Translations under genes and position numbers: made by a program
Notes under the pieces: model-generated
Database searches by the model: none
What the model was told of the DNA's origin: nothing
The model's input: the letters and a program-made list of their open reading frames with translations, nothing else
Origin: a virus
Reading direction: 5' to 3' (one strand)
Length of the DNA stretch: 16,164 nt
Virus genome (UHGV): UHGV-0142489
Shown here: piece after piece, positions 1,112-14,199 of the stretch
Layout: every line of letters begins with the position of its first letter
Numbering within the stretch: position 1 is the stretch's first letter

Positions 1112-1321
1112 ATGGGATTTTGGTTCGCTCGTACAAAAACGAGGGATAATGCACCCAGCCCTCAGGCAAAAAATGCAGAAGTTCCGGCGTCAGCGCAGGT
1201 TAACAAGCGTGGTGGTGTGTATATCTCATCACAGCAAATTTCTGAGCTTCCTGAGGTTAAGGAGATGCGTCGTCTCGCTGCTGCAATCGTTAAACAGGAT
1301 CTTGCCACTGTAAGGAAATAG
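1112..1321 (+). CDS. Small hypothetical protein, 69 aa, soluble
   Basis: ATG at 1112 preceded by an exceptionally strong Shine-Dalgarno GAGGAGGAG (1101-1109). Balanced, hydrophilic composition. TAG stop (1319-1321) overlaps the GTG start of the next gene by 1 nt. A hand-counted 100-nt sample (1141-1240) has 50 G+C, like the phage backbone. Confidence 0.65.
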   Translation: MGFWFARTKTRDNAPSPQAKNAEVPASAQVNKRGGVYISSQQISELPEVKEMRRLAAAIVKQDLATVRK

Positions 1322-2184
1322 TGTTGTTAGCTCTTCTAATTATCCCCATTCTGGTTAGTGGTTATATTATGATAACCGCTAACCAGTATCATTATTTCCG
1401 TTTATACCGACATGAAGGCCAGCTTCTTTATATGAAAGTAGCTGCATTAGGTACATATTGCCTTGTTGCTTCGGTAATAATTGCCGCATTTATAAAATAT
1501 AAATATCCTGATTTTCACCTAGTTCACGATATGGTGGAAACTTTTAATGTAACGTCAAAACCAGAAACAGATAGAATTTACATGTGGCTACTTCTTCTGT
1601 CAGTCACATCAATTTGCTTCTCTTTGTGTTATGTATCTTTTGTTTGGCTAAAAGATCTTCTTTTAGGTTGTTTTTATAAACGTGATATTTATGACAAAAT
1701 ATCAGAGGCAATGAAAGCTAGGGTATTGCGAAAAACGTACTCCCAGGGTTCTTTAGATTTGCTATTGCTTGATGCAATCGAATCAGATCCTAAGAAACCA
1801 ATGTTAATTACTTTATCATCAAATAAAGTATACGTTGGAATAATAAATGGTTCTGGTGAGCCAACGGAAAATCAAGGGCCACACCAACACATATCTTTTG
1901 TTCCTTTAATGTCAGGGTACAGAAACAAAGAAAATTTATCTGTTACATTTACAAACGCTTACCCAGGTGAAATCCAAATTAAGCGCAGTGCTGCGATAAA
2001 AGGGATAAGCAAAAAGAAAGTTCAAGGTCTAGAAATTATGGTATCTATAGACGAAATAAGTCATATATCATGGTTTGACTTTGAAGTATATAAGGCAACA
2101 AATAACAAAGTAGAAACAAAGGGGCATGTTGTTAATGTGACCAAAAATGGTCGCAACATATACTACAGAAGTGGCAGGAAATAA
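1321..2184 (+). CDS. Hypothetical membrane protein, 287 aa: three N-terminal TM helices plus ~175-aa cytoplasmic domain of unknown function
   Basis: GTG start at 1321 with AAGGA (1312-1316) upstream. Hydrophobic segments LLALLIIPILVSGYIMI, VAALGTYCLVASVIIAAFI and MWLLLLSVTSICFSLCYVSFVWL, followed by a basic stretch (KDLLLGCFYKRDIYDK), which by the positive-inside rule places the C-terminal domain in the cytoplasm. AT-rich (38 G+C in 1321-1420, hand count). An alternative start at ATG 1366 would delete the first helix. Confidence 0.7.
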   Translation: MLLALLIIPILVSGYIMITANQYHYFRLYRHEGQLLYMKVAALGTYCLVASVIIAAFIKYKYPDFHLVHDMVETFNVTSKPETDRIYMWLLLLSVTSICFSLCYVSFVWLKDLLLGCFYKRDIYDKISEAMKARVLRKTYSQGSLDLLLLDAIESDPKKPMLITLSSNKVYVGIINGSGEPTENQGPHQHISFVPLMSGYRNKENLSVTFTNAYPGEIQIKRSAAIKGISKKKVQGLEIMVSIDEISHISWFDFEVYKATNNKVETKGHVVNVTKNGRNIYYRSGRK

Positions 2185-2209
2185 ATTTTACGCAGTTTAG
2201 GTGGCTTAT

Positions 2210-2713
2210 ATGGATAATACTATCTTAGGCGCATTGATAGGTGCAGTTATTGCTATAGTTTCCACTTATATAAATGCAAGACAAGGATACAAAAACAGCA
2301 TAAGATTAGAGCGACAAAAAATATTAAGGGATAAACGCGAGCAATTATTTATAAATTGTATACTTGCTGAAAAAGTCATAAATTCAAGCGCAATTACCAT
2401 TCTCAATTTTGTAAAAAATGCCAGATACCACTCTGATAGTAAATTTGACGTATCAAGAGCGAATCCGTTGCAAACGATGGAAATGCTAATAAACATATAC
2501 CTTCCTGAGTATAAAAAAGAATTACAAGAACTCAATAATGCGTATCAAGAATTTCACAAATACTACTCTCAATATACATGTGCACATACCTTCAAAAATA
2601 TGCCTGATAATGAGAAGTCGAAGTTTATTGAGGAGGCTGATTTTTATGCAAAAAAGATATATGGCAAACTTAATGATATTAAGGACAAGATATCATTTAA
2701 CTCAATAGTATAA
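2210..2713 (+). CDS. Hypothetical membrane-anchored protein, 167 aa: single N-terminal TM helix plus helical K/E/N/Y-rich cytoplasmic domain
   Basis: ORF-track frame 2201..2713 begins at a GTG that is part of the AGGTGG Shine-Dalgarno (2199-2204); the in-frame ATG at 2210 sits 5 nt downstream and is the likelier start. TM segment ILGALIGAVIAIVSTYI followed by basic NARQGYKNSIRLERQKILRDKREQ. Very AT-rich (34 G+C in 2221-2320, hand count). Confidence 0.7.
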   Translation: MDNTILGALIGAVIAIVSTYINARQGYKNSIRLERQKILRDKREQLFINCILAEKVINSSAITILNFVKNARYHSDSKFDVSRANPLQTMEMLINIYLPEYKKELQELNNAYQEFHKYYSQYTCAHTFKNMPDNEKSKFIEEADFYAKKIYGKLNDIKDKISFNSIV

Positions 2714-2788
2714 CAGCGATACTGCCGCTGACGGCTCCCGCTGCGGTGGGCGTTCTGCGGATTCCCGCCCGGGCGGCGGTGGCATTCG

Positions 2789-2815
2789 TTAAAAACAAGG
2801 CCGCGAAAGCGGCCT
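2789..2815 (-). terminator. Intrinsic terminator closing the minus-strand virion operon
   Basis: Perfect 7-bp GC-rich stem AGGCCGC/GCGGCCT with GAAA tetraloop (plus-strand 2798-2815). On the minus strand the hairpin is followed directly by TGTTTTTAAC. It lies 9 nt downstream of the TGA stop of the 98-aa gene (2824-2826). Confidence 0.65.
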
Positions 2816-2823
2816 GTGACATG

Positions 2824-3120
2824 TCACGTTCCTTTTCTGAATGATAGCCGTTCGAAAAATGATGACATTCCACCGCAGACAATAGCAAAGATGATCCCAC
2901 CAAAGAAGAGAAGGCCAGCCTGCCACCACTCCCACCGCCATACATCCACAGCACCAACCATACCAACAATCGCTCCAACAAATGGAATATAGCTCACGAT
3001 GAAAGCAATGGGGGCTGCAATTATCCAGTGCAATCCCCACCATGATTCAAGCCCAGCCATAATTGCTGCCAACTGAAAAAGGCCAACGACGATATAAACA
3101 ATGAATCCTATCGCTTGCAT
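2824..3120 (-). CDS. Small integral membrane protein, 98 aa, three TM helices (holin-like topology or exclusion/immunity protein)
   Basis: ATG at 3120 with AGGTGA Shine-Dalgarno. Three hydrophobic helices separated by Trp-rich loops (ESWWGLHW, DVWRWEWWQ) and a short basic C-terminal tail (ERLSFRKGT). Last gene before the operon terminator. The two overlapping alternative-frame ORFs in the track were not chosen. Confidence 0.7.
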   Translation of the reverse strand: MQAIGFIVYIVVGLFQLAAIMAGLESWWGLHWIIAAPIAFIVSYIPFVGAIVGMVGAVDVWRWEWWQAGLLFFGGIIFAIVCGGMSSFFERLSFRKGT

Positions 3121-3132
3121 GTAGTCACCTAT

Positions 3133-3306
3133 TTACCCAGTAAAAATCAGAGGCCTCCCCTCAATAAGGCTTGCAACAAGAACTATTCCCTGCACAACAA
3201 AGATGAACCAGCAAATAGCTTGAGTCTGAGGGTTAAGAAAATATTTGTAGCGGTCAATAAATAACAACCCACCAGAAATTATCACACTCAAAATAATTAA
3301 AAACAC
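3133..3306 (-). CDS. Possible small two-TM membrane protein, 57 aa (not in the supplied ORF track)
   Basis: My own translation of the minus strand: GTG at 3306-3304 preceded by AAGGAAG, reading (M)FLIILSVIISGGLLFIDRYKYFLNPQTQAICWFIFVVQGIVLVASLIEGRPLIFTG and ending at TAA 3135-3133. No ATG is present in the frame, and AT-rich DNA gives hydrophobic codons by chance, so confidence is low. Confidence 0.3.
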   Translation of the reverse strand: MFLIILSVIISGGLLFIDRYKYFLNPQTQAICWFIFVVQGIVLVASLIEGRPLIFTG

Positions 3307-3315
3307 AACACTTCC

Positions 3316-5790
3316 TTATTGCGGAGTGACATCCTGAGGTCGCCACCAGTATGTCTGATTAAACTCTTTCTTCGAACGTTGCTCCATTTTACGCAAATAG
3401 CCTGGTGAAAAATACTCCTGCATCTGGTTAAAGATCATATGATCGAGAGCCGCCTTTAAGTACCAGAGATTCGCACCTGGCATCAAACCTTTCCCCAGCT
3501 TCACCAGATCACCACCAGTCTGCTCACTCTTCCCTTCCACAGCATTTAACGGTATGCCCTGAGCAATCTTCACTACGTCATCAACCAGACCAGCTACCGG
3601 GCCAAGCATCGACGCCAGCGCGCCGCTTCCGTACCTAGTGTGATCTGACAATAAAAAGTCACCGTAAAGGCCAAGGCCACCACCTTTCAGTAGAGCACCA
3701 AGCCAGAATTTTGCGGCACCTTCTCCTGTCATCTCTCGAGGATTACGACCAGACGCAAGGTCGTTAAGTTGCTGCGACAAAGCGCCAAGAATGGTCGTAC
3801 TGGCAATAAACGTCGCAATATATGCCGCACGCCCACCAGCAGACGGCATACCCATAGCGCGTGACCAGTGACGCATAACAACCGAGATAGGGAACGATTT
3901 AAACAGGAAAACACTTCTCGTTAATTCACCTTTCCATGTTCCACGCTGAATACCAGAACCGGTTATCAGTTGCTCACGTGCTCCCGGTGTAATAATAGCC
4001 ATATCAACTTCTTCAGTTACGGCACCGAGCAGTTTACGCATTGCCTCAAATTTCACTCGTTCAGGCTCACCAAGATGTTTAACTGCTGAATCAGGGATAC
4101 GCATAATGCTTTCCGGTGTCAGCATCGTATTATTACCGTTCCCCCAGTCCTCCTGTTGCGCCAGCTTCCATACGTTCCAGTCTGTGTCAGTAATCCCTTT
4201 GCTTTTCAGGATACGAAAATCAGAGTCATCGAGGCTACGAAGGTCTGGTGTCCGTGACACTACTTCTCCCAGGCTTCCCATCATGGTTACGCCATAGGCG
4301 CGCTTGTGCGCATCTGACCATGCTGTAAGCCCACTGGCACGCATTACGGCCGTTGCCGCCCAACGAGACACTGACGGCCCCATATTATCCATCGCCCAGC
4401 GGTTAACGCTGCCAAGTAGAGATTCCATCGCCAGACCAGCGCGGCGCGCCCGCGCAAGTTCTGTACGGTTCGTTGGGTCCATAGCTTCAAGCTGGTTGCG
4501 GAATAACTGGTTCATTGGAAGGTTGGTAACCTTCGCAGACAGATACATGGTTCCAAGATCAGAGAACGATGACAGCAACGCGGATCCGAGTCTGCTGGCA
4601 ACCAGCCAGTTGCGGATATTGTCAGACCATCGCGCGATGTGCGGATTCGCTACAGGCTGTGTCTTTCCAGAAATAAAGTTGTACAGATTCTCTGTGTTGT
4701 TCGCCAGCCGCTCGACTTTACCGGTTTTACTCGGGTTAGCTGTTGCCGTTTCTGCCTTAACCTGATCAAGAAGAGAGCGGAAAACATGATCGGGGTTTGG
4801 GCCATATGTTTCCACCAGCGCAATATCTTTACTGATACCTTCCAGGTGACCGACCATGATTTCCCATAGAGAGCGATCGCCATAAAGTTGCTGATATTGC
4901 AGATAGGAATCTGCATCTTTGAAATGTATCTGTCGTGATGCATTACCACGGTTAGCACGCACGCCGGAAATTCGCATTCCGGTATCAGTAAGCTTATTCA
5001 GCCCACCAGTAGCGATCGTGTTATAAGCCTCTCCAAGAAATGCAGACAACTCGGCATCGTTCATCAGTTGCCCATCGGCTCGGGTATAATATTTGCGATC
5101 CAGCTTACCTATAACATCGCTAACCCATTTATCTTTTGATACCGCCCCAACCTTTTCCATAGAATGATGTTGAGGGATCCCCCAGTTTTCGAGATAGCCA
5201 ATGTCCCCACCAGCATCATTAAACCGGCGGCGCAGTAGATCTGTCACTTCTCTCCACGCCTTAGCACCTTTTCTTGCTTTAGCATTGCCAGTATTTTGCC
5301 CTCGCATTTCATATACCAGGTCACGCACGCCCGCTTCATCTTCAAACAGACTAAAAAAGCGAGGATCAACTGCTTCGAATGCCTCCTGCAATCGACTCAA
5401 TGCATAATCACGGGTGGCTTTTGTTCTGGATTCAACAGAGAGGAAATTCGATTTACCGTCTGCATTAAAAGCAATAGTACGGTTAAGAGCGCCAAGTTTC
5501 CCATCAGCCCCTTGATAGCTATTGATAAATTTATCCAATCTCTGACGTGCGGCTATAGTGAGGGCCACACGACGTTTCTTTAATGCCGCTTCTCGCTGTA
5601 ATTCTTCAGATGCCAATTGTGCTGCTCGATATAGCCGCTCTGATTCGGAAAGTTGTCGCCACGAGATCGGGTCATCACGAGCAATGGAGCGCATATTTCG
5701 ATAAATGCGGTCTTCAATGTTCTGTATTTCTCGCGCCGTTAAAGTGCGCTGCGCCGCCTGCTGGACCGCTTGTATACATTCCTGTCTCAT
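3316..5790 (-). CDS. Large internal virion / ejection protein, 824 aa
   Basis: ATG at 5790, 5 nt after the stop of the upstream gene. Long, largely helical-looking protein with hydrophobic stretches near the C-terminus (AAYIATFIASTTILGAL, GAAKFWLGALLKGGGLGLYGDFLL). Its position after the tail tubular genes matches the internal core/ejection proteins of T7-type podoviruses. No tail-fibre-like repeats. Confidence 0.75.
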   Translation of the reverse strand: MRQECIQAVQQAAQRTLTAREIQNIEDRIYRNMRSIARDDPISWRQLSESERLYRAAQLASEELQREAALKKRRVALTIAARQRLDKFINSYQGADGKLGALNRTIAFNADGKSNFLSVESRTKATRDYALSRLQEAFEAVDPRFFSLFEDEAGVRDLVYEMRGQNTGNAKARKGAKAWREVTDLLRRRFNDAGGDIGYLENWGIPQHHSMEKVGAVSKDKWVSDVIGKLDRKYYTRADGQLMNDAELSAFLGEAYNTIATGGLNKLTDTGMRISGVRANRGNASRQIHFKDADSYLQYQQLYGDRSLWEIMVGHLEGISKDIALVETYGPNPDHVFRSLLDQVKAETATANPSKTGKVERLANNTENLYNFISGKTQPVANPHIARWSDNIRNWLVASRLGSALLSSFSDLGTMYLSAKVTNLPMNQLFRNQLEAMDPTNRTELARARRAGLAMESLLGSVNRWAMDNMGPSVSRWAATAVMRASGLTAWSDAHKRAYGVTMMGSLGEVVSRTPDLRSLDDSDFRILKSKGITDTDWNVWKLAQQEDWGNGNNTMLTPESIMRIPDSAVKHLGEPERVKFEAMRKLLGAVTEEVDMAIITPGAREQLITGSGIQRGTWKGELTRSVFLFKSFPISVVMRHWSRAMGMPSAGGRAAYIATFIASTTILGALSQQLNDLASGRNPREMTGEGAAKFWLGALLKGGGLGLYGDFLLSDHTRYGSGALASMLGPVAGLVDDVVKIAQGIPLNAVEGKSEQTGGDLVKLGKGLMPGANLWYLKAALDHMIFNQMQEYFSPGYLRKMEQRSKKEFNQTYWWRPQDVTPQ

Positions 5791-5795
5791 TTAAT

Positions 5796-7598
5796 TTAAC
5801 CTCTCAAGAAACACGCCACAGCGACATCAAACAGGCTGGAATCCTGTATTGCCTGCTCACTTTCCCTGTTCGCTTCATCCAGTACTTCACGCGCACTGCG
5901 CGATTGTGGATTACCATCATCATCCAGCACGGTGATTATCATGTCAGGTGATTCAAGCAGCGAGTCTTCAGCTATGCGCAGATCAATATCTCCTGCCTTA
6001 TCTGACATCATTTTTTGTTCTGCCTGTTGCAATATTTTATCAGGCTCAAAAGGAGCTACTTCGTCTGGCGTCCTGACCTCTGCTGTTTTATAGAATGAAA
6101 CAGCCTGAGCATTAAGTTCACTTTCTGCCTGCTGTCTCCGAGCCAGTTCTGCTCGAGCTTCAAAAAGCTGACCGCCAGGCTCGTGCGGTGCCAACGCGTT
6201 ACGGGAAAATTCCAGGCGTTCTTGTGCCTGCCGGATTCGTTGATCAATATCGCGAAGTCTGGCCTGTTTATCTGATCGAGCACGAGACAAAGCTTTACCG
6301 CTACCGGTTGGCTCTTCTGCAAGAATTTGTGCACGCTGTTCAGTGAGATTTTCAATAATTCGTTGGCTATTAGCGATTTCAGACTGGTAAACCTGTCTAT
6401 CTCCACGCGGCAAAAGCTGCGCGGCCTGTTCTTCAAGCAACCGATTTTCTATAGCACGCGCCGTTACTCCATCATCTACAGATGACAGAGCCTCATTAAC
6501 TGCCTGAGACAGCAGACTCTTGCGCCCAGGAATTTCACTGAAAGATGCAGACTCAACAATGCTGGCAACGTCTACAGGTCTCCCCTGGCTAACATCAGAC
6601 ATAGCTTTTCGCAGAGCCTGAATGTGAGAATTGCGCGAAAGCACGTTGATCGGCACGCCGGGCGCAATATCAATTTCAGCATGATGAGCGGCATTCGCCG
6701 CCAGTGCAGCATCGATATCAACTGGTGAAAAATTTGGTGCGTTTGTAGACTCGCCGCGAGAGTTAATAAATCTGCCGACACCACCAAACGCCACCCCAAG
6801 AACAGCATCAATAGCAATTGCCTGTCGATCCAACACATCATACTGGTTAGCCATTTCGCTATAGCCACCATCACGAAGTGTTTTTGCAGTAAGCCCACGC
6901 TGTGCCATACCGAACGCAATATTTGTACCTGCGGCATAGGCAATATCTGGCGTTGCACGTACTGCTGTTGCTGCGGCGCGTCGCACTGAACTCTCACCCG
7001 TCCGCGCAAGCTGAGCCGCCACACCTTCCGCCAGCGCACCACCAGCACGTAACCCGAGGCTCATAGGGATCAGTGTTCCGGCACCAGCAGTAATGCCCTG
7101 CACTAATCCCGCTTCCTGCGCCGTCCTGAAATCAACACCCTGTGCTGTCAGCCGTTCAAACTCAGAAAAACCCTGTAGCGAAGTTACCGCCGCCGCACCT
7201 CCGACAGGACCACCGAGCGTTGTACCGACAACAGCCTGCCCGCCCATATCGAACAACCCATAAAGAACCTGCCCGGCGGTTCCGGTTGTCGCGGCATCAG
7301 GCGTCAGCCGCTTAACCTGCTGCTCTGCTAGTTTTCTCTGCTCGGCAATGTATGAAACTGAAGTATCATTGAGCGAGGTGTTTTCGTTAATAAACTGAGC
7401 AATCGGGGATACGATTTTATCCATCCCTGCCCATAGCAACTGATCTGGCTTTGCCACCAGCCCGGAGTACAAACCAGACAATGCCGCTCCTACAGCATTG
7501 TCGAAAAAACCAACATCGCTGTTAAAGCCCGCTGGATTTGATGCTGCTTCGTCAAGTTGCTGATTCTGGTTTACTGGATTAAGGCCAAAGTAACTCAT
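5796..7598 (-). CDS. Internal virion protein, 600 aa, with Gly/Ala-rich N-terminal third
   Basis: ATG at 7598 overlaps the TGA of the upstream gene (ATGA, 4-nt overlap). Gly/Ala-rich low-complexity segments (GTTLGGPVGGAAAVTSL, GITAGAGTLIPMSLGLRAGGALAEGVAAQLARTG) followed by a charged, coiled-coil-like C-terminal half. Confidence 0.75.
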   Translation of the reverse strand: MSYFGLNPVNQNQQLDEAASNPAGFNSDVGFFDNAVGAALSGLYSGLVAKPDQLLWAGMDKIVSPIAQFINENTSLNDTSVSYIAEQRKLAEQQVKRLTPDAATTGTAGQVLYGLFDMGGQAVVGTTLGGPVGGAAAVTSLQGFSEFERLTAQGVDFRTAQEAGLVQGITAGAGTLIPMSLGLRAGGALAEGVAAQLARTGESSVRRAAATAVRATPDIAYAAGTNIAFGMAQRGLTAKTLRDGGYSEMANQYDVLDRQAIAIDAVLGVAFGGVGRFINSRGESTNAPNFSPVDIDAALAANAAHHAEIDIAPGVPINVLSRNSHIQALRKAMSDVSQGRPVDVASIVESASFSEIPGRKSLLSQAVNEALSSVDDGVTARAIENRLLEEQAAQLLPRGDRQVYQSEIANSQRIIENLTEQRAQILAEEPTGSGKALSRARSDKQARLRDIDQRIRQAQERLEFSRNALAPHEPGGQLFEARAELARRQQAESELNAQAVSFYKTAEVRTPDEVAPFEPDKILQQAEQKMMSDKAGDIDLRIAEDSLLESPDMIITVLDDDGNPQSRSAREVLDEANRESEQAIQDSSLFDVAVACFLRG

Positions 7599-10108
7599 TG
7601 CGGAATATCTCCGGAGAATCTCTGACGCTTCTGTGTCAGATCAAGAACAACAGGAGAACCATCATCTTTCAGCAGATAACCAGTACCAAGTTTCACCAGG
7701 TACTGACTATCGCCGTAACTTTGCAAACCATACTGACCAGGCGGTGTTTTTATCCCGGTGCCGACCACTTGTTCATTCCAAGCCTGATTAACCTGCTTAT
7801 CGAATTGCTCTGCAGACATTCCCCACGGCAAAAGGACATTCCCCATTCCGTTATAGTCATGCACGCCACCTGTAGCTACGTTAACAGCCTGCTTCCAGAT
7901 ATCAGTGTCAATTTCGCCTGATATCACGCCTTTTTTCGCCATCACACCAGCGTAATAGTCCTTTGCGATCTCGTATGCCATTGATGCCCCCTGAGCATCA
8001 CCAGCAAATGCATCCTTCACCATGTCAGAAAACTCAAGGCGAAGATCAGCATCTTTAGGCATCGGAATACCTTTCGCATCATCAGTACCTTTACGAGCCG
8101 CCGCGCCAGTAAGAATTGTCTGCGCAGCGGTTTCAGGAGACACGGAAACATCCGGATTAAACCAGTTTTTTTCTGCCAAAATACCACCAGGCTTGTCCAT
8201 CAGTATCCCGGCAACGGCAGCAGATGGAGCGTTGGCACTGATCTGCTGTAGTGCTGACATATACACCTGCCCACCACCAGTGCTCTGCCTGATGGTATCG
8301 AGATATGCTGCCTGTTGGGAAACTGGAGCATCACGAAAGAAAACACCGATCTGATTGGCCTCGTCTTTGGAAAAGAACGTCAGTGGAGTGCCATATGACT
8401 TAGCAAGGTCACTGACCTGAGCAGCACGCAAGGCAACGCTCTGTCCAAAGTTATCCTTATTGCTCATGTCGATAGGCTTTGCCTGTCCGGCGGCAAGAGA
8501 GAACTGTACAGGATCAGCCTGTCGCTGCTTTATCACCTGACTTGCAGCCGACACAACGTTGTCATAAAGAGCGGCTCGTGCCGCATAACCCTCCCCTGTC
8601 TCACCAGTATCCGGGCGTAATTGCTCAACATATGCTGTAATGCTGCTTGTCGGCATGTTGCGGAAAGAGCCTATATACTGTCCGGCGATTTGCGTATTTC
8701 TGAACTCGGTATATCGCAGGTTTCCTTCTCTGACTCCATAAGCTGCAATAAAATCAGCCTCACCAGGTGGGTTAGGAAATTCAACGCCCCGCATATACGC
8801 AGCTGTCGCATCGCGAACCTTGCTGTCAATCATCGTTTTATATTCAGCCTGCTGCTGCCGACGCAGTTGATCCGCCTGTCGCATAAAACTTGCCTGCGCC
8901 TCAGGAGATGCCGCATCGAATGCTGCATTACCGGTATAGCGTTTGGTGTTGGTTGGAATTGTTGATAAACCAAGTGCTGCACTGACACCAGCAGTTAACT
9001 GCTGATCACTGTATGGCTGGCTACCGTTCTCATGATGGATAATGGCTGCACAAAGCGCCTTCAGGGTATCAGGATTTGATGCATCGAGAGGCTCATCAGC
9101 AGAAACGCCAAGTTGTTCGCACACTGCTTTGATATACGACATAGTGTCATTTTTATCAGTAGGCGGTGCCCAGCGATTAATTATCTCGCTGACGGTATCA
9201 ATACCCTGCCGCTGATACGACATCAGGTTCCGCCCTAATGCACGAATCCCGTGTTCAGGTGTTTCGAATTTAGCAAATCTACCATCATCACCGGTCTGGC
9301 CTACCCACGGATTAGTTTTGCTGTATTCGAGATTTCCGGGGTTATTGTTGCGTATGCCACGGACACGCTCGGAAGAGCCACTATCTGTTACAGCACGGCG
9401 AGCTCCAGCAGCAGTATCACTTAACTCGCCATTACTTTGGATGAATGCGGTCGCATTGTTTGCCGACCACTGGGACAATGCTGCATCAGCAACCTTCTCT
9501 TTAAACTCGATTTTCTTGGTCTGTATTTGCTCGTCGCTCCAGCCATGTGCAGCACCGTACTCCTCAATTTGCTGGAAAGTTTGCTTATTAGCCAATACGT
9601 ATGCGGCATTGTCGCCATACAATGCTGCGGCATTTTTACCATTGTTCAGCAGCGTCGCCTGAAACTGACCTTCTTCGTAGGCATTAATTTGCCCTATCTC
9701 GTGCCGCCCGGCCTGCGTAGTGAACTGAATGCGCTGCTGCTGCGCCTGCTGCATGAAAGCATTACGAGCCTGTTCATCCGGCAGCGACATAGCCAGTTGT
9801 TCGACCTGAGCATCAAACTGCTGCGTATACTCATGGCCTTTTCCAATAGCATTTTTCCCTTTCAGGTTAAGCAAACCTGTTTCAGGGTTATTCAGCAGAT
9901 CACTGCTTATCTGACTGAGGTTAAGAGATGCCTCCTGAGCCAGAGCGATATTGGCACGCTGTTTTGCCTGCCCCAAAACATCAATTGCCTCTGTCCCTGC
10001 CCGAACAAAAGCATCACCAATACCTGGCTGAGAAAACGTCTGCAAGCCTGCTGACTGAACTCCACGGCTCTCAACCTGGCGTCCGGATACTGTTGGTACG
10101 ACTGGCAT
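7595..10108 (-). CDS. Large internal virion protein, 837 aa
   Basis: ORF-track frame 7595..10183 trimmed to the ATG at 10108, which has GGAGG 6 nt upstream and overlaps the TAA of the upstream gene by 1 nt (TAATG). The longer form would overlap the upstream gene by 76 nt. Contains a conserved-looking block GIRNNNPGNLEYSKTNPWVGQTGDDGRFAKFETPEHGIRALGRNL (residues ~250-295). Confidence 0.75.
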   Translation of the reverse strand: MPVVPTVSGRQVESRGVQSAGLQTFSQPGIGDAFVRAGTEAIDVLGQAKQRANIALAQEASLNLSQISSDLLNNPETGLLNLKGKNAIGKGHEYTQQFDAQVEQLAMSLPDEQARNAFMQQAQQQRIQFTTQAGRHEIGQINAYEEGQFQATLLNNGKNAAALYGDNAAYVLANKQTFQQIEEYGAAHGWSDEQIQTKKIEFKEKVADAALSQWSANNATAFIQSNGELSDTAAGARRAVTDSGSSERVRGIRNNNPGNLEYSKTNPWVGQTGDDGRFAKFETPEHGIRALGRNLMSYQRQGIDTVSEIINRWAPPTDKNDTMSYIKAVCEQLGVSADEPLDASNPDTLKALCAAIIHHENGSQPYSDQQLTAGVSAALGLSTIPTNTKRYTGNAAFDAASPEAQASFMRQADQLRRQQQAEYKTMIDSKVRDATAAYMRGVEFPNPPGEADFIAAYGVREGNLRYTEFRNTQIAGQYIGSFRNMPTSSITAYVEQLRPDTGETGEGYAARAALYDNVVSAASQVIKQRQADPVQFSLAAGQAKPIDMSNKDNFGQSVALRAAQVSDLAKSYGTPLTFFSKDEANQIGVFFRDAPVSQQAAYLDTIRQSTGGGQVYMSALQQISANAPSAAVAGILMDKPGGILAEKNWFNPDVSVSPETAAQTILTGAAARKGTDDAKGIPMPKDADLRLEFSDMVKDAFAGDAQGASMAYEIAKDYYAGVMAKKGVISGEIDTDIWKQAVNVATGGVHDYNGMGNVLLPWGMSAEQFDKQVNQAWNEQVVGTGIKTPPGQYGLQSYGDSQYLVKLGTGYLLKDDGSPVVLDLTQKRQRFSGDIPQ

Positions 10109-10653
10109 TATAATCCTCCGGGTAATCTGGTTCCTGCTGCTGCCCCGATTGGCGCAGGGGTGCTTTGAGTAAACGGACTCCACGTCCCACCAAACATCTG
10201 GTACGCACCGTATGCCTTCAGAGGCGCAGTGAGCAATGTTGTTGCTGCTCCCACATTCCCCTGTTTACGGGCTGAACTGGCTTCTGCTTTATAGTTGGCA
10301 GCCTGAACCTGATAACCGTAAGCCTCGCGTTGCGCGTTATTCACCGTCGTCAGCGAATCAAGAGCGCCAAACTGAGCAGTGTCACCAAATATATCCAGCG
10401 CGTTACCGGTAGATAAATCAGCGCCGGTAGCCCCCATTGTCGCCGCCTGTGTACCAAGCCGCTGTCGGGTCTCTCTGCGCCGTTGCTCAGCTTCAGCGTT
10501 ACCCCTGTTTATTGCATCATTTGCCTGAGCTGTGGCTATATCTGCGTTCGCTTCTGCAACCTTCGAGGCATACTTTCCCTGTTGGTACTGGGTGTATGCC
10601 TGAATGCCACTCATGGCGAGCATTGCGCCACCAGCAATAACCGGATCGCACAT
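10108..10653 (-). CDS. Internal virion protein, 181 aa
   Basis: ATG at 10653 with GGAGAG upstream, overlapping the TAA of the upstream gene (TAATG). Ala/Gln-rich with a hydrophobic N-terminus (VIAGGAMLAMSGI). Size and position resemble T7 gp14-type core proteins. Confidence 0.7.
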   Translation of the reverse strand: MCDPVIAGGAMLAMSGIQAYTQYQQGKYASKVAEANADIATAQANDAINRGNAEAEQRRRETRQRLGTQAATMGATGADLSTGNALDIFGDTAQFGALDSLTTVNNAQREAYGYQVQAANYKAEASSARKQGNVGAATTLLTAPLKAYGAYQMFGGTWSPFTQSTPAPIGAAAGTRLPGGL

Positions 10654-11117
10654 TATTTTCTCTCCATGTGAAATCTGTGGAAATTAAGACCAAGAGCACC
10701 ATAAGGCGCGGCTTCTTCAAGCCTGAATCCAAGCCAGTGCAGCCATGCTTTGGCAACATGGTTTCGCTCGTCGACATAGTTTTCCAGGCGCGGATAAACT
10801 GCCAGCATCTGCTGCAATACAGGGCGGCAGTGGCGAAGAAATGTCTTCTGATATTTTTCGATACGGCTGGTTCCGACCAGCCAGGGCGTACCATTGCCAC
10901 CGATCATTGACGCCGGAGATACGCCAAACATGGTTACCAGTTCTCCGTTCGCAAATCCTGACCAGGCCATAGTCGCAGTACGCAGACCAACACGCAGCGC
11001 ATCTTCGGTAGTCATCAGCGATACCGCATACAGTTCGTCAATATCAGCCTGACGAACATCCGGCAAAATCATCTGAAGATGCTCTTCGGTAGCGGGAATA
11101 ATTTGAACGTCGATCAT
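10653..11117 (-). CDS. Virion-associated protein, 154 aa (position equivalent to T7 gp13)
   Basis: ATG at 11117 overlapping the TGA of the tail tubular B gene (TGATG). Immediately downstream of the tubular pair, as gene 13 is in T7-type phages. Function not recognisable from the sequence. Confidence 0.65.
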   Translation of the reverse strand: MIDVQIIPATEEHLQMILPDVRQADIDELYAVSLMTTEDALRVGLRTATMAWSGFANGELVTMFGVSPASMIGGNGTPWLVGTSRIEKYQKTFLRHCRPVLQQMLAVYPRLENYVDERNHVAKAWLHWLGFRLEEAAPYGALGLNFHRFHMERK

Positions 11118-13594
11118 CAGAATCCCCCAACAGTAAGGCGAGGAATAACGGCAAGAACAGACAGCGGCAACGGGTCAAGCTGACGGATTTTTACACGTCC
11201 GTTTTTGCCCCAGTTACTGTCCAGTTTCACTTCTACTTTTCCGGTAGCATCATCAACAGGATCATCGTAGAACTCGAATTCACGCTGTGGATATTCGTAC
11301 CATTTACCGCCAGGCGTAGTCGCCCAGATGCCGCGACTGGCGTTGACCACTAGTGTCACGGTATTGATCAGCTGTTTCTTATCGAGCAGCGTCTCCTGCC
11401 CGTTAATATTGATGTCCAGGGTTTCAAACTGGGCGTTAATCGGCAGTCCGATGTGGACCACGGCGCCGGGTTTCTCCAGCGTAACGGCGCCGCCGGTGAC
11501 GACTTTCTGCGGCTCTACGCTGGCGTCAGACAGTACATTCACGGTCTGTCCTTCGAGGTGATCGAGTCCGGCGAATGTCTGGCGGGCCATGTACCAGTTA
11601 GTGGTGGCGGTATTGCGCAGGGCAGGAGGAATATTCCGGTTGGCTGTGACGGTTACCGAGTTGCCGCTTTCAACCGAAATAATGTCGCAGCGCAGCTGCA
11701 TGGCAACGGCGCTACCATCTTCAGGATCGGTTCCTGTGTAGGGGAACTGGATCTGTGCGCCGACGTCTCCTGCGGTAAAATAGCTGGCCCCGCTCATCGT
11801 CAGGGTATACGGCACCTGATAACTCCAGTCCCCGCTTCCACCGGTTATAGTCGCCGCCCGGCTGCCGGTGTTGCGTCCGTCATAGGTCAGTCCGCTGTCG
11901 ACAAAGAAAGCGTCAAGGTCATCGGTGAACTGGCGGCTTGCCAGCCTCTCGATATAGCGTTTCGTCTGGCCGTTGATAGTGCGGTTAACCACGAAATAGA
12001 TCGCATCCTCGCTGCCTTCACTGATACCGCAAGTGCTCTCATATTTCCCGGCGCTGGATTGCGGAGACCAGGCGAAAACCTGCTGATCGCGCAGATAGGT
12101 CAGCACCAGCAATTTTCCATCATCACGCACGCAGAACGCGCTGGAGAACGGGACAATACAAAACGCCCAGTCGACAATGCTGCGCTTCTGGAAAAGGTGA
12201 TTAGCAAGGATTGTCAGGTCGTTGCCCTGGAATCCATCCACATCAAACGAGTAGGCCAGATCCCGCACGACGCTGCCCTTCTCCTGGATAAAGAGCGCGA
12301 TATTCGAAACTGCGATAGGTGGGACATCGCTGCAGCCGTTTGAGCCCTGAGAACTCAGGGAGAATGCAGAAGGCGTAAGCACTTTATTCTGGTCACCGGT
12401 CACAACAAACTCACCGCCGGAGGTCAGAACAACCAGCGATCCAACATCGATAAGGTGGCGAATTTCGTTAACCTGCCGGCCAGCGTAGGTATAAACGATC
12501 CTGTCATCGTCCTGCGTCGGGTTACTCTTGCCGAAGTCTTTATAGTCACCGGTACGGCTGGCCCAGATGGTTTGCGGATAGGCAGGGGATGCAGCGAAGT
12601 ACAGCCTCTGCTGGTAGTAGACGACCGTCGCCGGATAGCCATTGACGCTGTTCCACGCATAGCGTGCCCACTTGTAGCTGGCCTTGTCAGCCCCGACAAC
12701 GTTCTCAGGGATACGAGAAACCACATCAGCGGTTGCAGTCAGGCCGTCACCGGCGACGGCAGTGATCCGCACAATGCCAAAACCACTATGCAGGTATTCC
12801 CACTGCACGCCTGTATCATCATCGCCGGTTCCGCCCCAGCCATCCCACGCCATACCTTCGGTGTGTGATGGGCGTAACGTCCCGGTTTTTCCTTCGGTAT
12901 TGGCGCGATAGTAGTTGCTGTCGGCGCGCCGGATATCCTCGATCGATGTGCTCTTGCTGGTTTCCCATACTGGTACAGAGTCAACGGCTGGCTGCTCGAG
13001 GTAGAACAGCTTTCCGACCTGCTCGGCGCCGAATATTGCAGAGCTCGAGGTCAGAGTGATTGTGCCAGTAGTGGCGCTGGCCCAGACAGTTTTGGACTCG
13101 TCGACATTGATATCTTCAAACGGGCCGTTAGTTGTCTGCACATCGACGATCTGCCAGTTGTCATGCGCATACCGGCGCAATTCTTTAGGCGGATAGGACG
13201 GGTGCACGATCGTCATCACATCGGCGCTTTGGGTGAATTTCAGGCCGAAAACATCATTTTCTGTATAAGGTGTCGCCAGCTCGTAGATTACATTGCCGGT
13301 GGTCAGCACCAGGCCGCCGTCTTTGATGACGCGCATGTAATTGTGGCCAAACTCCAGCGCATAGGTCTGCACCGTCGAAAACTGGAAAGGGATAAGGCGG
13401 CATTTGCGATCCGGGTATTTCGCCGCGGCGATGAACTGCGTGCCCGGGCGGTTCTCTACCCCGCCATACTGCCGCACGATAAAGTTATCGCACTTGCGCA
13501 GCGCCACCTGGTACTTGGCCATATCGATGCGGCCATAGAGCGATGGAGCAATTTCTCCACCTGAGAAGCTCGGTTGTATCCAGCTAACAGCCAT
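11117..13594 (-). CDS. Tail tubular protein B (T7 gp12-like), ~825 aa
   Basis: The N-terminus (SWIQPSFSGGEIAPSLYGRID ... GGVENRPG) follows the pattern I remember for T7 gp12, and the size is close to gp12 (~800 aa). It follows the tubular protein A gene directly. Start set at ATG 13594 (1-nt TGATG overlap with the upstream stop); the track's GTG at 13600 is the alternative. Confidence 0.8.
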   Translation of the reverse strand: MAVSWIQPSFSGGEIAPSLYGRIDMAKYQVALRKCDNFIVRQYGGVENRPGTQFIAAAKYPDRKCRLIPFQFSTVQTYALEFGHNYMRVIKDGGLVLTTGNVIYELATPYTENDVFGLKFTQSADVMTIVHPSYPPKELRRYAHDNWQIVDVQTTNGPFEDINVDESKTVWASATTGTITLTSSSAIFGAEQVGKLFYLEQPAVDSVPVWETSKSTSIEDIRRADSNYYRANTEGKTGTLRPSHTEGMAWDGWGGTGDDDTGVQWEYLHSGFGIVRITAVAGDGLTATADVVSRIPENVVGADKASYKWARYAWNSVNGYPATVVYYQQRLYFAASPAYPQTIWASRTGDYKDFGKSNPTQDDDRIVYTYAGRQVNEIRHLIDVGSLVVLTSGGEFVVTGDQNKVLTPSAFSLSSQGSNGCSDVPPIAVSNIALFIQEKGSVVRDLAYSFDVDGFQGNDLTILANHLFQKRSIVDWAFCIVPFSSAFCVRDDGKLLVLTYLRDQQVFAWSPQSSAGKYESTCGISEGSEDAIYFVVNRTINGQTKRYIERLASRQFTDDLDAFFVDSGLTYDGRNTGSRAATITGGSGDWSYQVPYTLTMSGASYFTAGDVGAQIQFPYTGTDPEDGSAVAMQLRCDIISVESGNSVTVTANRNIPPALRNTATTNWYMARQTFAGLDHLEGQTVNVLSDASVEPQKVVTGGAVTLEKPGAVVHIGLPINAQFETLDININGQETLLDKKQLINTVTLVVNASRGIWATTPGGKWYEYPQREFEFYDDPVDDATGKVEVKLDSNWGKNGRVKIRQLDPLPLSVLAVIPRLTVGGF

Positions 13595-14199
13595 CAGCAC
13601 ATCCTCGCTACGGTAAACGGATCGTCAGGCATTTGCGGTTCCTGCGATTCGTTCATGCTGTGAGAGCCAGCGCTGAGGATGATCCGGCTATACATGCTCA
13701 GGGCATTATTGCCAAGGTCGGCATTACCCGTGAGAACCATGTTAATAGCCGCGGCCAGGCGCCAGGATAGAGCCTCCTGGAAGATGGAATCGAACATGTT
13801 CACGTCGGTGATGCGGGCAACATACCGAAGCCAGGCCTGCGGCAGATCGGTGTAAATCAGGCGCCCCGTGCCGGCGCTGTCCGCGCCGACCACGTACTGC
13901 ACGCGCATAGCAGCCGTCGGATACCGTACGCCAGGCAGCGGGATCTCAATAATACGGAGGCAGTCAGTGGGATAGGTATACGCATAATCCCAGTCCTGCG
14001 GCGGGTTATTGGTGTCAGCCAGCGCGATATTCTTGGTCGCAAAATTCCAGTCAAAATCGGCCAGGACAGCATCACGAATCGACTCGTAATACAGGGAGCA
14101 TTGCCCGGCTTCTTTGCTGGCTTCCTCCAGGCTGTTGATGCTCCGGTTATTACCGATGTTGCTCAGCGCCCGGTTGCAGATCTCAATGACAGAGGCCAT
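13594..14199 (-). CDS. Tail tubular protein A (T7 gp11-like), 201 aa
   Basis: Size ~200 aa; N-terminal ICNRALSNIG...SINSLEE, a central DFDWNF block and C-terminal EALSWRLAAAIN parallel the T7 gp11 pattern as I remember it. Lies immediately upstream of tubular protein B. ATG at 14199 overlaps the upstream TAA (TAATG). Confidence 0.8.
   Translation of the reverse strand: MASVIEICNRALSNIGNNRSINSLEEASKEAGQCSLYYESIRDAVLADFDWNFATKNIALADTNNPPQDWDYAYTYPTDCLRIIEIPLPGVRYPTAAMRVQYVVGADSAGTGRLIYTDLPQAWLRYVARITDVNMFDSIFQEALSWRLAAAINMVLTGNADLGNNALSMYSRIILSAGSHSMNESQEPQMPDDPFTVARMC

What the first reader, a model, noticed from the sequence alone, without database searches (positions are those of the whole stretch)
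2824..3306. Two small membrane-protein genes at the very end of the virion operon, one missing from the ORF track
After the last large internal virion protein gene the operon ends with a 98-aa three-TM protein with Trp-rich loops and a short basic C-terminus, preceded by a possible GTG-initiated 57-aa two-TM ORF in an AT-rich stretch. No endolysin gene is adjacent, so these may not be canonical holins. Small membrane proteins next to ejection-protein genes are good candidates for superinfection exclusion (blocking genome entry of related phages) or for lysis timing.
Basis: partly seen in the sequence, partly recalled or inferred. Interest (0 to 1): 0.5.

Follow-up and report, generated by a model that had tools for sequence, protein, structure and literature searches.

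The report
Small membrane genes after ejection operon
Two real but uncharacterised small inner-membrane protein genes close the virion operon of an epsilon15-like E. coli prophage, in a slot where related phages swap many unrelated envelope-protein genes; the larger one belongs to a big unnamed family that recurs right after the DNA-injection channel gene of distant phages.

Summary
The window is an epsilon15/phiV10-like (Uetakevirus) E. coli prophage. On the minus strand, the last internal virion protein gene (3316-5790; epsilon15 gp17-like, the T7 gp16/IVP-D equivalent) is followed by a GTG-started 57-codon two-helix ORF (3133-3306), a 98-codon three-helix ORF (2824-3120), and a strong terminator.

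Both are genuine genes. dN/dS is 0.17-0.25 for the 57-aa ORF and 0.01-0.04 for the 98-aa ORF. The start codon switches GTG/TTG behind a conserved Shine-Dalgarno. RefSeq annotates only the 98-aa gene.

Neither is a recognisable holin or known exclusion protein. The phage's own lysis cassette lies about 6 kb away.

New findings:
- The site after the IVP-D gene is a cassette slot. Relatives fill it with unrelated mini-membrane proteins, lipoproteins and secreted proteins.
- The 98-aa protein belongs to a large family with no model (730 clusters). It sits directly after IVP-D genes in several deeply diverged podovirus lineages, including Acinetobacter phages, and also occurs on bacterial chromosomes.

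Best guess, untested: late-expressed inner-membrane proteins that interfere with DNA entry. No promoter for prophage expression was found. Function remains inferred.

The parts
3316..5790 (-). Last large internal virion (ejection) protein gene, 824 aa. It is epsilon15 gp17-like, the equivalent of T7 gp16 / IVP-D. Included as context and as the left anchor of the cassette slot.
   Evidence: phrog_684 matches over the full length. The last 200 aa are 98% identical to phiV10 p20. Epsilon15 gp17 is assigned to the IVP-D family in PMC4819975.
3311..3317 (-). Shine-Dalgarno AAGGAAG for the 57-aa gene, overlapping the TAA stop of the 824-aa gene.
   Evidence: Read directly from the sequence. Relatives conserve or strengthen it: AAGGAGG before a TTG start in L106 and L107.
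3133..3306 (-). 57-aa mini membrane protein gene with a GTG start. Two hydrophobic helices flank the invariant loop DRYKYFL.
   Evidence: dN/dS is 0.17-0.25 in frame and at least 0.9 out of frame, and the ORF is intact in 26 nucleotide variants. Homologues at 74-98% identity occur in E. coli, Klebsiella, Citrobacter, Salmonella and Enterobacter, in each locus examined about 10 nt after the gp17-like gene. A distant homologue is the 54-aa ORF of L088 (hhalign 91%).
3125..3130 (-). Shine-Dalgarno AGGTGA for the 98-aa gene, within the 12-nt spacer after the 57-aa stop codon.
   Evidence: Read from the sequence. The junction TAGGTGAC(T/C)ACATG is kept even when a different gene precedes it (L107).
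2824..3120 (-). 98-aa membrane protein gene. It has three hydrophobic helices, two Trp-rich acidic loops, a GxxxGxxGA motif and a basic C-terminus. It belongs to a large family that has no model in any library searched.
   Evidence: phrog_3075 at E 5e-54. dN/dS 0.01-0.04. 730 cluster representatives at E<=1e-3. AlphaFold pLDDT 89. No Pfam, NCBIfam or PADLOC model.
2816..2827 (.). Perfect palindrome GTGACATGTCAC that overlaps the TGA stop of the 98-aa gene. It is the conserved right-hand border of the cassette slot.
   Evidence: It is unique in the window and in a 41-kb related prophage locus. It is present next to the terminator in phiV10, SPN1S, Tyrion, BUCT711 and L108, with one-base variants in L106 and L107, whatever cassette precedes it.
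2788..2815 (-). Intrinsic terminator closing the virion operon. The hairpin is AGGCCGCTTTCGCGGCCT followed by a T-run. It also faces the convergent + strand genes, so it may act in both directions (inferred).
   Evidence: 7-bp stem with 6 GC pairs and a T-run. The equivalent site is annotated as a terminator in phiV10 and epsilon15.

Best explanation
The two ORFs are accessory inner-membrane proteins carried in a recombination-prone cargo slot. The slot lies between the last ejection-protein gene (the IVP-D / T7 gp16 equivalent) and the operon terminator.

**Shown**
- They are co-transcribed and translationally coupled with the late virion genes.
- They are dispensable for making a phage, because plaque-forming relatives carry other cassettes instead.
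- They are unrelated to the phage's lysis genes.

**Inferred**
- They insert into the inner membrane of the infected cell, and of the lysogen if there is read-through.
- There they interfere with the membrane step of DNA delivery by incoming podoviruses. This would mean blocking assembly or function of the IVP-D-type channel, as P22 SieA does to gp16/gp20.
- An alternative version of the same mechanism is that they shield the producing cell's membrane from its own channel-forming ejection protein.
- The 98-aa protein probably acts as a homo-oligomer, given its glycine-zipper-like GxxxGxxGA helix and aromatic belts.
- The 57-aa hairpin protein is an independent module, not an obligate partner of the 98-aa protein.
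For: **Genes and expression**
- Both are real genes under purifying selection.
- The gaps are 9 and 12 nt, each with an SD. No sigma-70-like promoter lies upstream here or in three other lineages, and a terminator follows.

**The slot is a cassette site**
Behind nearly identical gp17-like genes (95-99% aa identity over the last 200 residues), relatives carry different content:
- phiV10 and SPN1S carry a 46-aa 2TM protein.
- Tyrion carries a 103-aa 2TM protein.
- ZX5 carries a frameshifted 54-aa ORF plus a 126-aa lipoprotein.
- Klebsiella prophages carry a 123-aa secreted protein or a 103-aa 2TM protein, each followed by the 98-aa gene.
- Salmonella L107 carries 58-aa, 93-aa and 98-aa genes in series.
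- Salmonella L108 carries the 58-aa gene plus an epsilon15 gp18-like gene.
- Citrobacter L106 carries the 58-aa gene plus a lipoprotein.
- Epsilon15, whose gp17 is much more diverged (38% over the same stretch), has gp18 (64 aa, 2TM) in the same position.

A relic of a gp17 3' end in the spacer of L106-L108 and the conserved palindrome-plus-terminator show exchange by recombination.

**The 98-aa family follows IVP-D genes in diverged lineages**
- Cronobacter, with a 1-nt gap.
- Salmonella with T7-like gene order.
- An epsilon15-type gp17 in L188.
- L168 and L210, after a 964-aa protein.
- L140, L152 and Yersinia, after 1125-1130-aa proteins. For these and for L168/L210 the IVP-D identity is inferred from size and position only; tblastn with six IVP-D proteins found no match.
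- Acinetobacter phage TPWB-05 and four IMG/VR contigs (IVP-D 35% identical; hhalign 99.1%).

**Precedent and dispensability**
[quoted passage not shown] It blocks injection, and escape mutants map to the ejection proteins (PMC10883804).
- VP5, BcepC6B, ZCVPP1 and Tr60_Ab31 have the tail fibre or another structural gene directly after IVP-D, so these small genes are not needed for the ejection machinery itself.
Against: - There is no experimental datum of any kind.
- No own promoter was found, so prophage expression, the hallmark of classical exclusion genes such as sieA, is not supported.
- P22 sieA is convergent with its own promoter. Here that position and orientation are held by the + strand low-GC ORFs at 1321-2713.
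- There is no sequence or fold similarity to any known exclusion protein.
- The 98-aa protein evolves extremely slowly (dN/dS about 0.02), which is unlike an arms-race factor.
- The family is also common outside phage late operons. It occurs next to DUF6804 or DUF805 genes, near umuDC or hipBA, and as fusions or tandem repeats. That points to a more general membrane function.
- The recurrent position after IVP-D could simply reflect a permissive module boundary.
Confidence: 0.35

Rival explanations
1. Lysis-timing proteins. On this reading the 98-aa and/or 57-aa protein is an auxiliary holin, pinholin or antiholin made late, which tunes when the membrane is permeabilised.
For: - They are small late-operon membrane proteins.
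- The 98-aa protein has about three hydrophobic helices and a short basic C-terminus, like class I holins.
- There is a marginal Phage_holin_5_2 hit (E 0.027).
- Filling of one slot by many unrelated small TM proteins is also what holins look like.
- In L168/L210 and TPWB-05 the gene lies just before the terminase genes, roughly where T7 carries gene 17.5; the T7 gene order is from my own knowledge.
Against: - The holin hit is below threshold and is seen in only 4 of 27 members.
- hhalign gives no relation to the phage's own holin-like proteins.
- A complete lysis cassette with two holin-like genes is present both in phages with these genes and in phages without them.
- The same slot also holds lipoproteins and secreted proteins.
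- The family is highly conserved across phyla. It also occurs as chromosomal, fused or tandem copies, which is unlike holins.
- The 57-aa protein lacks a charged cytoplasmic tail.
Confidence: 0.2
2. Ejection-module helper. On this reading the 98-aa family protein is functionally tied to the IVP-D protein of its own phage. It might be a membrane-side chaperone or immunity factor during assembly, or a small hydrophobic virion component co-ejected with IVP-D.
For: - Direct adjacency to IVP-D genes recurs in at least seven diverged IVP-D types, with overlapping or 1-35-nt junctions.
- It is co-transcribed with the virion genes.
- Purifying selection is very strong.
Against: - It is absent from functional close relatives with 96-98% identical IVP-D C-termini (phiV10, SPN1S), from epsilon15, and from VP5 and BcepC6B.
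- Family subtype and IVP-D type are not congruent. L140 and L152 share an IVP-D type, but their family members are 35% and 55% identical to the window protein.
- Many family members lie far from any phage structural gene.
Confidence: 0.15
3. Generic cargo with a host-physiology role unrelated to phage entry or lysis, for example a small channel or a membrane-stress protein. It would sit after IVP-D only because that module boundary tolerates insertions.
For: - The family is large (730 clusters at 50% identity) and is found in many chromosomal contexts.
- It is paired with other uncharacterised small membrane proteins, DUF6804 and DUF805.
- Cassette turnover at the site is evident.
Against: - The same family has landed in the same position in lineages as far apart as Enterobacterales and Acinetobacter phages. 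In each lineage examined it is in the late-operon orientation, and in most it is tightly coupled.
- A random-cargo model predicts both orientations and own promoters.
Confidence: 0.25

Closest known systems
P22 SieA (superinfection exclusion, Lederbergvirus; PMC10883804)
   Same: Both are inner-membrane proteins encoded immediately beside the gene for the membrane-spanning ejection protein, ahead of an antirepressor region and the tailspike gene. SieA exists as several barely related sequence types and is present in only some relatives.
   Different: There is no sequence similarity (BLASTP E 19; hhalign probability 0.2%). SieA is 164 aa, convergent to gene 16, and has its own promoter for prophage expression. 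The window genes are co-oriented with the late operon and tightly coupled to it, with no promoter found.
Epsilon15 gp18 and phiV10 p21 / SPN1S_0020 (annotated only as hypothetical or putative integral membrane proteins)
   Same: They occupy the same position, directly after the gp17-like gene and before the same terminator. They have the same build as the 57-aa protein: 46-64 aa with two TM helices around a short basic loop.
   Different: They are not detectably homologous to the 57-aa family (hhalign probability 0.3%). Nothing is known of their function either. These phages lack the 98-aa gene.
Class I holins, and the Pfam family Phage_holin_5_2 (Hol44)
   Same: Small size, roughly three hydrophobic helices, a short basic C-terminus and late expression.
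   Different: The profile match is below threshold (15.1 bits against 29.2). The genes are not adjacent to an endolysin. The phage has its own two holin-like genes elsewhere. Family conservation, chromosomal copies, tandem repeats and fusions are atypical for holins.
PHROG phrog_3075 (unknown function)
   Same: The 98-aa protein matches over its full length at E 5e-54, so the protein is already catalogued as a phage protein family.
   Different: The PHROG carries no function. It does not capture the much wider bacterial family or the link to IVP-D genes found here.
Prophage morons and envelope-acting exclusion proteins such as HK97 gp15, Cor, Llp and T4 Imm (recalled from my own knowledge, not tested individually)
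   Same: They are small membrane or lipoprotein cargo at the edge of a structural operon. They show presence/absence polymorphism, and the 57-aa gene has deviant GC (37% against 50%).
   Different: A classical moron has its own promoter, and none was found here. There was no significant hit in the whole-library Pfam and PADLOC searches; I did not check which exclusion models those libraries contain.

Membership tests
Holin (any Pfam/PHROG holin family) | Significant match to a holin family profile | tested here: not met
   The best hit is Phage_holin_5_2 at E 0.027, 15.1 bits against a cut-off of 29.2, and only 4 of 27 family members hit it. The PHROG hit is to an unknown-function family. hhalign against the phage's own holin-like proteins gives probability <=0.4%.
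Holin (any Pfam/PHROG holin family) | Encoded in a lysis cassette next to an endolysin and spanin | tested here: not met
   There is no endolysin in the 16-kb window. The cassette lies about 6 kb away beyond the tailspike in a near-identical prophage, and likewise in phiV10, epsilon15 and TPWB-05.
Holin (any Pfam/PHROG holin family) | Small protein with at least one TM helix and a charged C-terminal tail | tested here: met
   This is met for the 98-aa protein: three helices in the AlphaFold model, and a family-wide C-terminal net charge of +1.5. It is not met for the 57-aa protein, whose tail is EGRPLIFTG.
Holin (any Pfam/PHROG holin family) | Timed lethal permeabilisation of the inner membrane that releases endolysin | not testable with these tools
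   This needs induction and lysis-curve experiments.
P22 SieA-type superinfection exclusion | Sequence relationship to SieA types A-C, including the motif FxRYPxEAxxFNK | tested here: not met
   BLASTP E 19 and hhalign probability 0.2% against P22 SieA. The motif is absent from both proteins on direct reading.
P22 SieA-type superinfection exclusion | Gene located beside the membrane-spanning ejection-protein gene, between it and the tailspike gene | tested here: met
   The order in the window is IVP-D gene, then the 57-aa gene, the 98-aa gene and the terminator. The Bro-N antirepressor gene follows, with the tailspike beyond it. P22 has 16, sieA, mnt-arc-ant, 9.
P22 SieA-type superinfection exclusion | Own promoter giving expression from the prophage | tested here: not met
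   Consensus scans found no sigma-70-like site upstream on the coding strand, in the window or in the Cronobacter, Klebsiella and Acinetobacter loci. A consensus scan cannot exclude weak or non-canonical promoters, and no transcript data were available.
P22 SieA-type superinfection exclusion | Blocks DNA injection, with escape mutations mapping to the ejection proteins | not testable with these tools
   This needs plating, lysogenisation and K+ efflux assays.
Moron (prophage cargo unit) | Present or absent between otherwise closely related phages | tested here: met
   The gp17-like C-termini are 95-99% identical, yet the downstream content differs completely.
Moron (prophage cargo unit) | Flanked by its own promoter and terminator, with deviant base composition | tested here: inconclusive
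   The terminator is present. No promoter was found. The 57-aa gene is 37% GC and the 98-aa gene 47%, against about 50% for the operon.
phrog_3075 and the wider unnamed 3-helix family | Full-length profile match with the conserved Q16, P46, G49, G53, A57, W61 and W63 | tested here: met
   phrog_3075 at E 5e-54 over residues 1-98. The invariant and near-invariant columns are listed. The profile search finds 730 cluster representatives at E<=1e-3.

The most novel reading that the evidence does not exclude
The 98-aa family is a dedicated antagonist of the IVP-D (T7 gp16-type) inner-membrane DNA-delivery channel. It travels with IVP-D genes across very distant podoviruses. It works either as a self-linked injection blocker against superinfecting podoviruses or as immunity for the producing cell. 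Bacteria have repeatedly domesticated chromosomal copies as an entry-level anti-phage defence. The neighbouring slot of unrelated mini-proteins would then be a diversity-generating locus for envelope-level exclusion.
Probability: 0.15. Interest if true: 0.75.

Novelty: new variant of a known kind. Interest (0 to 1): 0.45.

Why it matters
How short-tailed phages get DNA across the inner membrane, and how cells block that step, is known in detail for very few systems. P22 SieA is the main one.

This locus offers three things. The first is a cheap, testable candidate set: two tiny genes, several natural replacement cassettes, and isogenic phages that differ only there. The second is a large conserved membrane-protein family with no model in Pfam, NCBIfam or PADLOC. 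The third is a genomic rule for finding more candidates: look at the gene after IVP-D.

About 4% of complete E. coli genomes carry this exact arrangement and about 10% carry the slot. That includes ExPEC, APEC and probiotic strains, so any exclusion effect would bear on phage therapy host range.

If instead the genes do nothing measurable, the finding is an ordinary pair of hypothetical prophage membrane proteins, one of which annotation pipelines miss because of its non-ATG start.

Tried and rejected
- **Read-through or fusion of the two ORFs.** They share a frame here, but the spacer is 12 or 13 nt in different relatives, so this was rejected.
- **The 57-aa ORF as a chance ORF in AT-rich DNA.** Rejected by frame-specific dN/dS, start-codon and SD conservation, and homologues in five genera.
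- **Known families.** Pfam, PHROGs, NCBIfam and PADLOC gave nothing significant beyond phrog_3075 and a weak phrog_17645 hit (E 0.064) for the 57-aa ORF.
- **Domain fusions in long family members.** Only RDD and MORN appeared, which is uninformative.
- **Paralogy with the phage's own holin-like proteins, or homology with P22 SieA.** None found.
- **Promoter embedded in the 3' end of the IVP-D gene.** None by consensus scan in four lineages. By eye there is an extended -10-like TGTGATAAT inside the 57-aa ORF; it is weaker in Klebsiella and absent in Citrobacter, so I treat it as chance in AT-rich DNA.
- **Weak hairpin inside the 57-aa ORF (3149-3170).** Judged to be chance.
- **Literature.** No paper mentions WP_001147903/4, and none found in the searches run here discusses these small genes in Uetakeviruses.
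- **Distant-member alignment scan.** The search for related loci with the distant-member alignment failed for lack of a conserved stretch. I replaced it with a degenerate motif scan.
- **Membrane topology.** The family-wide charge pattern has both termini basic and both loops acidic and Trp-rich. That fits N-in/C-in with a re-entrant middle hairpin as well as it fits a plain 3-TM N-out/C-in, so topology is left open.
Full report
**What the window is.** DNA and protein searches place the window in an epsilon15/phiV10-like temperate podovirus (genus Uetakevirus) integrated in E. coli. The minus strand carries the virion operon in this order:
- a tail protein gene (11117-13600);
- two small internal virion protein genes;
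- an SLT-containing gp15-like gene;
- a gp16-like gene (5796-7598);
- an 824-aa gp17-like gene (3316-5790).

Epsilon15 gp17 has been assigned to the family of T7 gp16 (IVP-D), the ejection protein that reaches the inner membrane (PMC4819975).

**Checking the observation.** Nine nucleotides after the TAA of the 824-aa gene, a GTG opens a 57-codon ORF (3133-3306). The SD AAGGAAG overlaps that stop codon. Twelve nucleotides after the ORF's own stop, an ATG behind AGGTGA opens a 98-codon ORF (2824-3120). The TGA of the 98-codon ORF lies inside the palindrome GTGACATGTCAC (2816-2827). A GC-rich hairpin and T-run follow (2788-2815).

The 57-aa product has two hydrophobic segments around the loop DRYKYFL, and its gene is 37% GC in an operon of about 50% GC. 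The 98-aa product has 7 Trp, clustered in LESWWGLHW and DVWRWEWWQ, and a basic tail. AlphaFold, using a 27-sequence alignment, gives a confident model (pLDDT 89) with helices 2-28, 32-42/46-59 and 65-97. The coordinates and description in the finding are therefore correct.

**Are they genes?** Yes.
- I collected about 100 homologous loci. The 57-codon ORF is intact in all 26 distinct nucleotide versions.
- Its dN/dS against Klebsiella-type copies is 0.17-0.25 in frame but 0.9-1.65 in the other frames.
- Its start codon toggles between GTG and TTG behind a conserved or improved SD.
- Its protein family (74-98% identity) occurs in E. coli, Klebsiella, Citrobacter, Salmonella and Enterobacter.
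- The 98-codon ORF has dN/dS 0.01-0.04, with synonymous sites near saturation.
- RefSeq/PGAP annotates only the 98-aa gene in the three E. coli chromosomes I inspected. A non-ATG start and the absence of any internal Met explain the omission.
- The two ORFs share a frame here, but relatives have a 13-nt spacer, so a fusion or read-through product is not conserved.

**What they are not.**
- The only holin signal is a sub-threshold Phage_holin_5_2 hit (E 0.027), seen in 4 of 27 family members.
- Profile comparison with the phage group's own two holin-like proteins and with P22 SieA finds nothing.
- PADLOC and NCBIfam give no hit.
- A near-identical E. coli prophage has a complete lysis cassette (two holin-like genes, a GH19 endolysin and a DUF2514 protein) about 6 kb away beyond the tailspike. 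phiV10, which lacks both small genes, has the same cassette.

**A cassette slot.** The stretch between the gp17-like stop codon and the palindrome-plus-terminator is highly variable, even though the flanks are 95-99% identical.

| Phage or locus | Content after the gp17-like gene |
|---|---|
| phiV10, SPN1S | 46-aa two-helix protein |
| epsilon15, BUCT554 (diverged gp17, 38% over the last 200 aa) | 64-aa gp18 |
| Tyrion | 103-aa two-helix protein |
| ZX5 | frameshifted 54-aa ORF, then a 126-aa lipoprotein |
| Klebsiella prophages | 123-aa or 102-aa signal-peptide protein, or a 103-aa two-helix protein, then the 98-aa gene |
| L104 | 175-aa signal-peptide protein, then the 98-aa gene |
| Citrobacter L106 | 58-aa gene, then a lipoprotein |
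| Salmonella L107 | 58-aa, 93-aa and 98-aa genes |
| Salmonella L108 | 58-aa gene, then an epsilon15 gp18-like gene |
| Cronobacter, another Salmonella prophage | the 98-aa homologue only |

The 54-aa ORF of L088 is a distant homologue of the 57-aa family (hhalign 91%). phiV10 p21 and epsilon15 gp18 are not. So at least three unrelated mini-hairpin families occupy the first position.

The 97-nt spacer after the 58-aa gene in L106-L108 is a relic of an epsilon15-type gp17 3' end. This shows that cassettes move by recombination between the conserved gp17 end and the conserved palindrome and terminator. The palindrome is unique in the prophage.

**The 98-aa family.**
- A profile search of 1.84 billion cluster representatives finds 730 members at E<=1e-3 and 297 at E<=1e-10. 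Most are 90-120 aa; a few are tandem repeats or fusions.
- The near-invariant residues are Q16, A19, P46, G49, G53, A57, W61, W63 and F72.
- No curated model covers the family.
- Family-wide, both termini are basic and both loops are acidic and Trp-rich, so the topology is unresolved. It may be a plain 3-TM protein or N-in/C-in with a re-entrant middle hairpin.

Members occur on bacterial chromosomes and islands. Some lie next to DUF6804 or DUF805 genes, and others near resolvases, umuDC or hipBA.

Family members also sit immediately after the last large internal virion protein gene in lineages whose IVP-D proteins are barely alignable with each other:
- an epsilon15-type gp17 (L188);
- a 964-aa protein, just before the terminase genes (L168, L210);
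- 1125-1130-aa proteins (L140, L152, Yersinia L011);
- Acinetobacter phage TPWB-05 and four related contigs, where the IVP-D is 35% identical and hhalign of the small protein is 99.1% at E 6e-19.

For the 964-aa and 1125-1130-aa proteins, the IVP-D identity rests on size and position only. tblastn with six IVP-D proteins found no match in those loci.

Family subtype and IVP-D type are not congruent, so the adjacency is re-created or maintained despite shuffling. Conversely, VP5, BcepC6B, ZCVPP1 and Tr60_Ab31 have the tail fibre or another structural gene directly after IVP-D. The small genes are therefore not part of the core ejection machinery.

**Expression.** Consensus scans find no sigma-70-like promoter upstream of the small genes in the window, or in the Cronobacter, Klebsiella and Acinetobacter loci. 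Junctions are 1-35 nt with SD sequences, and a terminator or terminator-like hairpin follows in the window, the Klebsiella locus and TPWB-05. The genes therefore look like the last cistrons of the late virion transcript. This is inference from sequence only.

**Mechanism.** I commit, at about 35%, to inner-membrane proteins that interfere with the membrane step of podovirus DNA delivery. This could be exclusion of incoming phages or protection of the producing cell from its own channel-forming ejection protein. The grounds are:
- the position beside the IVP-D gene across lineages;
- the envelope-targeted and interchangeable nature of the neighbouring cassettes;
- dispensability for particle formation;
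- the P22 SieA precedent (PMC10883804).

The main counter-evidence is the lack of a prophage promoter and the opposite orientation relative to sieA. Further points against are the very slow evolution of the 98-aa protein and the many non-phage copies of the family. Rivals are a lysis-timing role (about 20%), a helper or component of the ejection module (about 15%), and unrelated membrane cargo at a permissive boundary (about 25%).

**Novelty and verdict.** The 98-aa protein is already catalogued as a function-less PHROG. The existence of small membrane ORFs after gp17 is visible in the phiV10 and epsilon15 annotations. Three things appear to be new, as far as the libraries and literature searched here show:
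- the evidence that the unannotated 57-aa ORF is a conserved gene;
- the cassette-slot architecture with its recombination anchors;
- the size of the 98-aa family and its recurrent linkage to IVP-D genes.

It is a modestly interesting, readily testable lead rather than a surprise. Interest is 0.45.

Noticed in passing
window 2816-2827: The perfect 12-bp palindrome GTGACATGTCAC abuts the operon terminator. It is unique in the prophage. It is conserved beside the terminator in phiV10, SPN1S, Tyrion, Klebsiella BUCT711 and L108, with one-base variants in L106 and L107, regardless of which cassette precedes it. It could be a recombination anchor or a protein-binding site.
   Followed up: partly
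window 1321-2184 and 2201-2713 (+ strand): Two low-GC (31-35%) ORFs converge on the same terminator: one of 287 aa (phrog_3630) and one of 170 aa with an N-terminal TM helix (phrog_36918). They hold the position and orientation that sieA has in P22, and they have no Pfam, PADLOC or NCBIfam hit. The 170-aa type occurs as four tandem paralogues in L152 6381-8481 (BLASTP E 4e-10 to one of them).
   Followed up: partly
window 2718-2792 (+ strand): This is the 3' remnant of a 53-aa 'transmembrane anchored protein' gene. The gene is intact in other prophages (for example L003 2919-3080), and PGAP flags it as a pseudogene in strain E275a.
   Followed up: partly
L106-L108, about 5178-5275: The 97-nt spacer after the 58-aa gene matches the 3' end of an epsilon15-type gp17 gene, including its SD and the start of gp18. 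It is a scar of cassette exchange by recombination.
   Followed up: yes
L118 (phage vB_EcoP_ZX5) 2110-2280: The 54-aa two-helix gene of the L088 type is split between two frames in ZX5. This is either a frameshift or a sequencing error. A 126-aa lipoprotein gene follows it.
   Followed up: no
L245 (Pseudomonas phage Shamal) 2460-2807; L119 (phage YA3) 2143-2553: Shamal has an unannotated multi-TM ORF of about 115 aa in the 464-nt gap after its IVP-D gene. YA3 has a reverse-strand lipoprotein there that, by eye, resembles the 126-aa lipoprotein of ZX5 and L106. The slot after IVP-D therefore carries envelope proteins in Pseudomonas phages too.
   Followed up: no
L123 2932-2966 (Acinetobacter phage TPWB-05): A 15-bp-stem hairpin with a T-run lies directly after the 98-aa family gene and before the terminase genes. 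In this distant lineage too, the family gene is the last cistron before a terminator-like structure.
   Followed up: no
window 7595-10183 (- strand): The mechanically listed 862-aa ORF is probably over-extended at its GTG start. The phrog_992 match begins at residue 26, and the homologues in phiV10 and other prophages are 837 aa.
   Followed up: no
L003 1-423 (E. coli SF-468 prophage): A prophage with the identical 57-aa plus 98-aa arrangement carries an endosialidase (K1 capsule-specific) tailspike. The same small-gene cassette therefore travels with different receptor specificities.
   Followed up: no
L016, L018, L021, L138; L113, L237: Outside phage late operons, the 98-aa family gene is repeatedly followed by a DUF6804 or a DUF805 small membrane protein gene. 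This suggests a two-gene membrane module of unknown function.
   Followed up: partly
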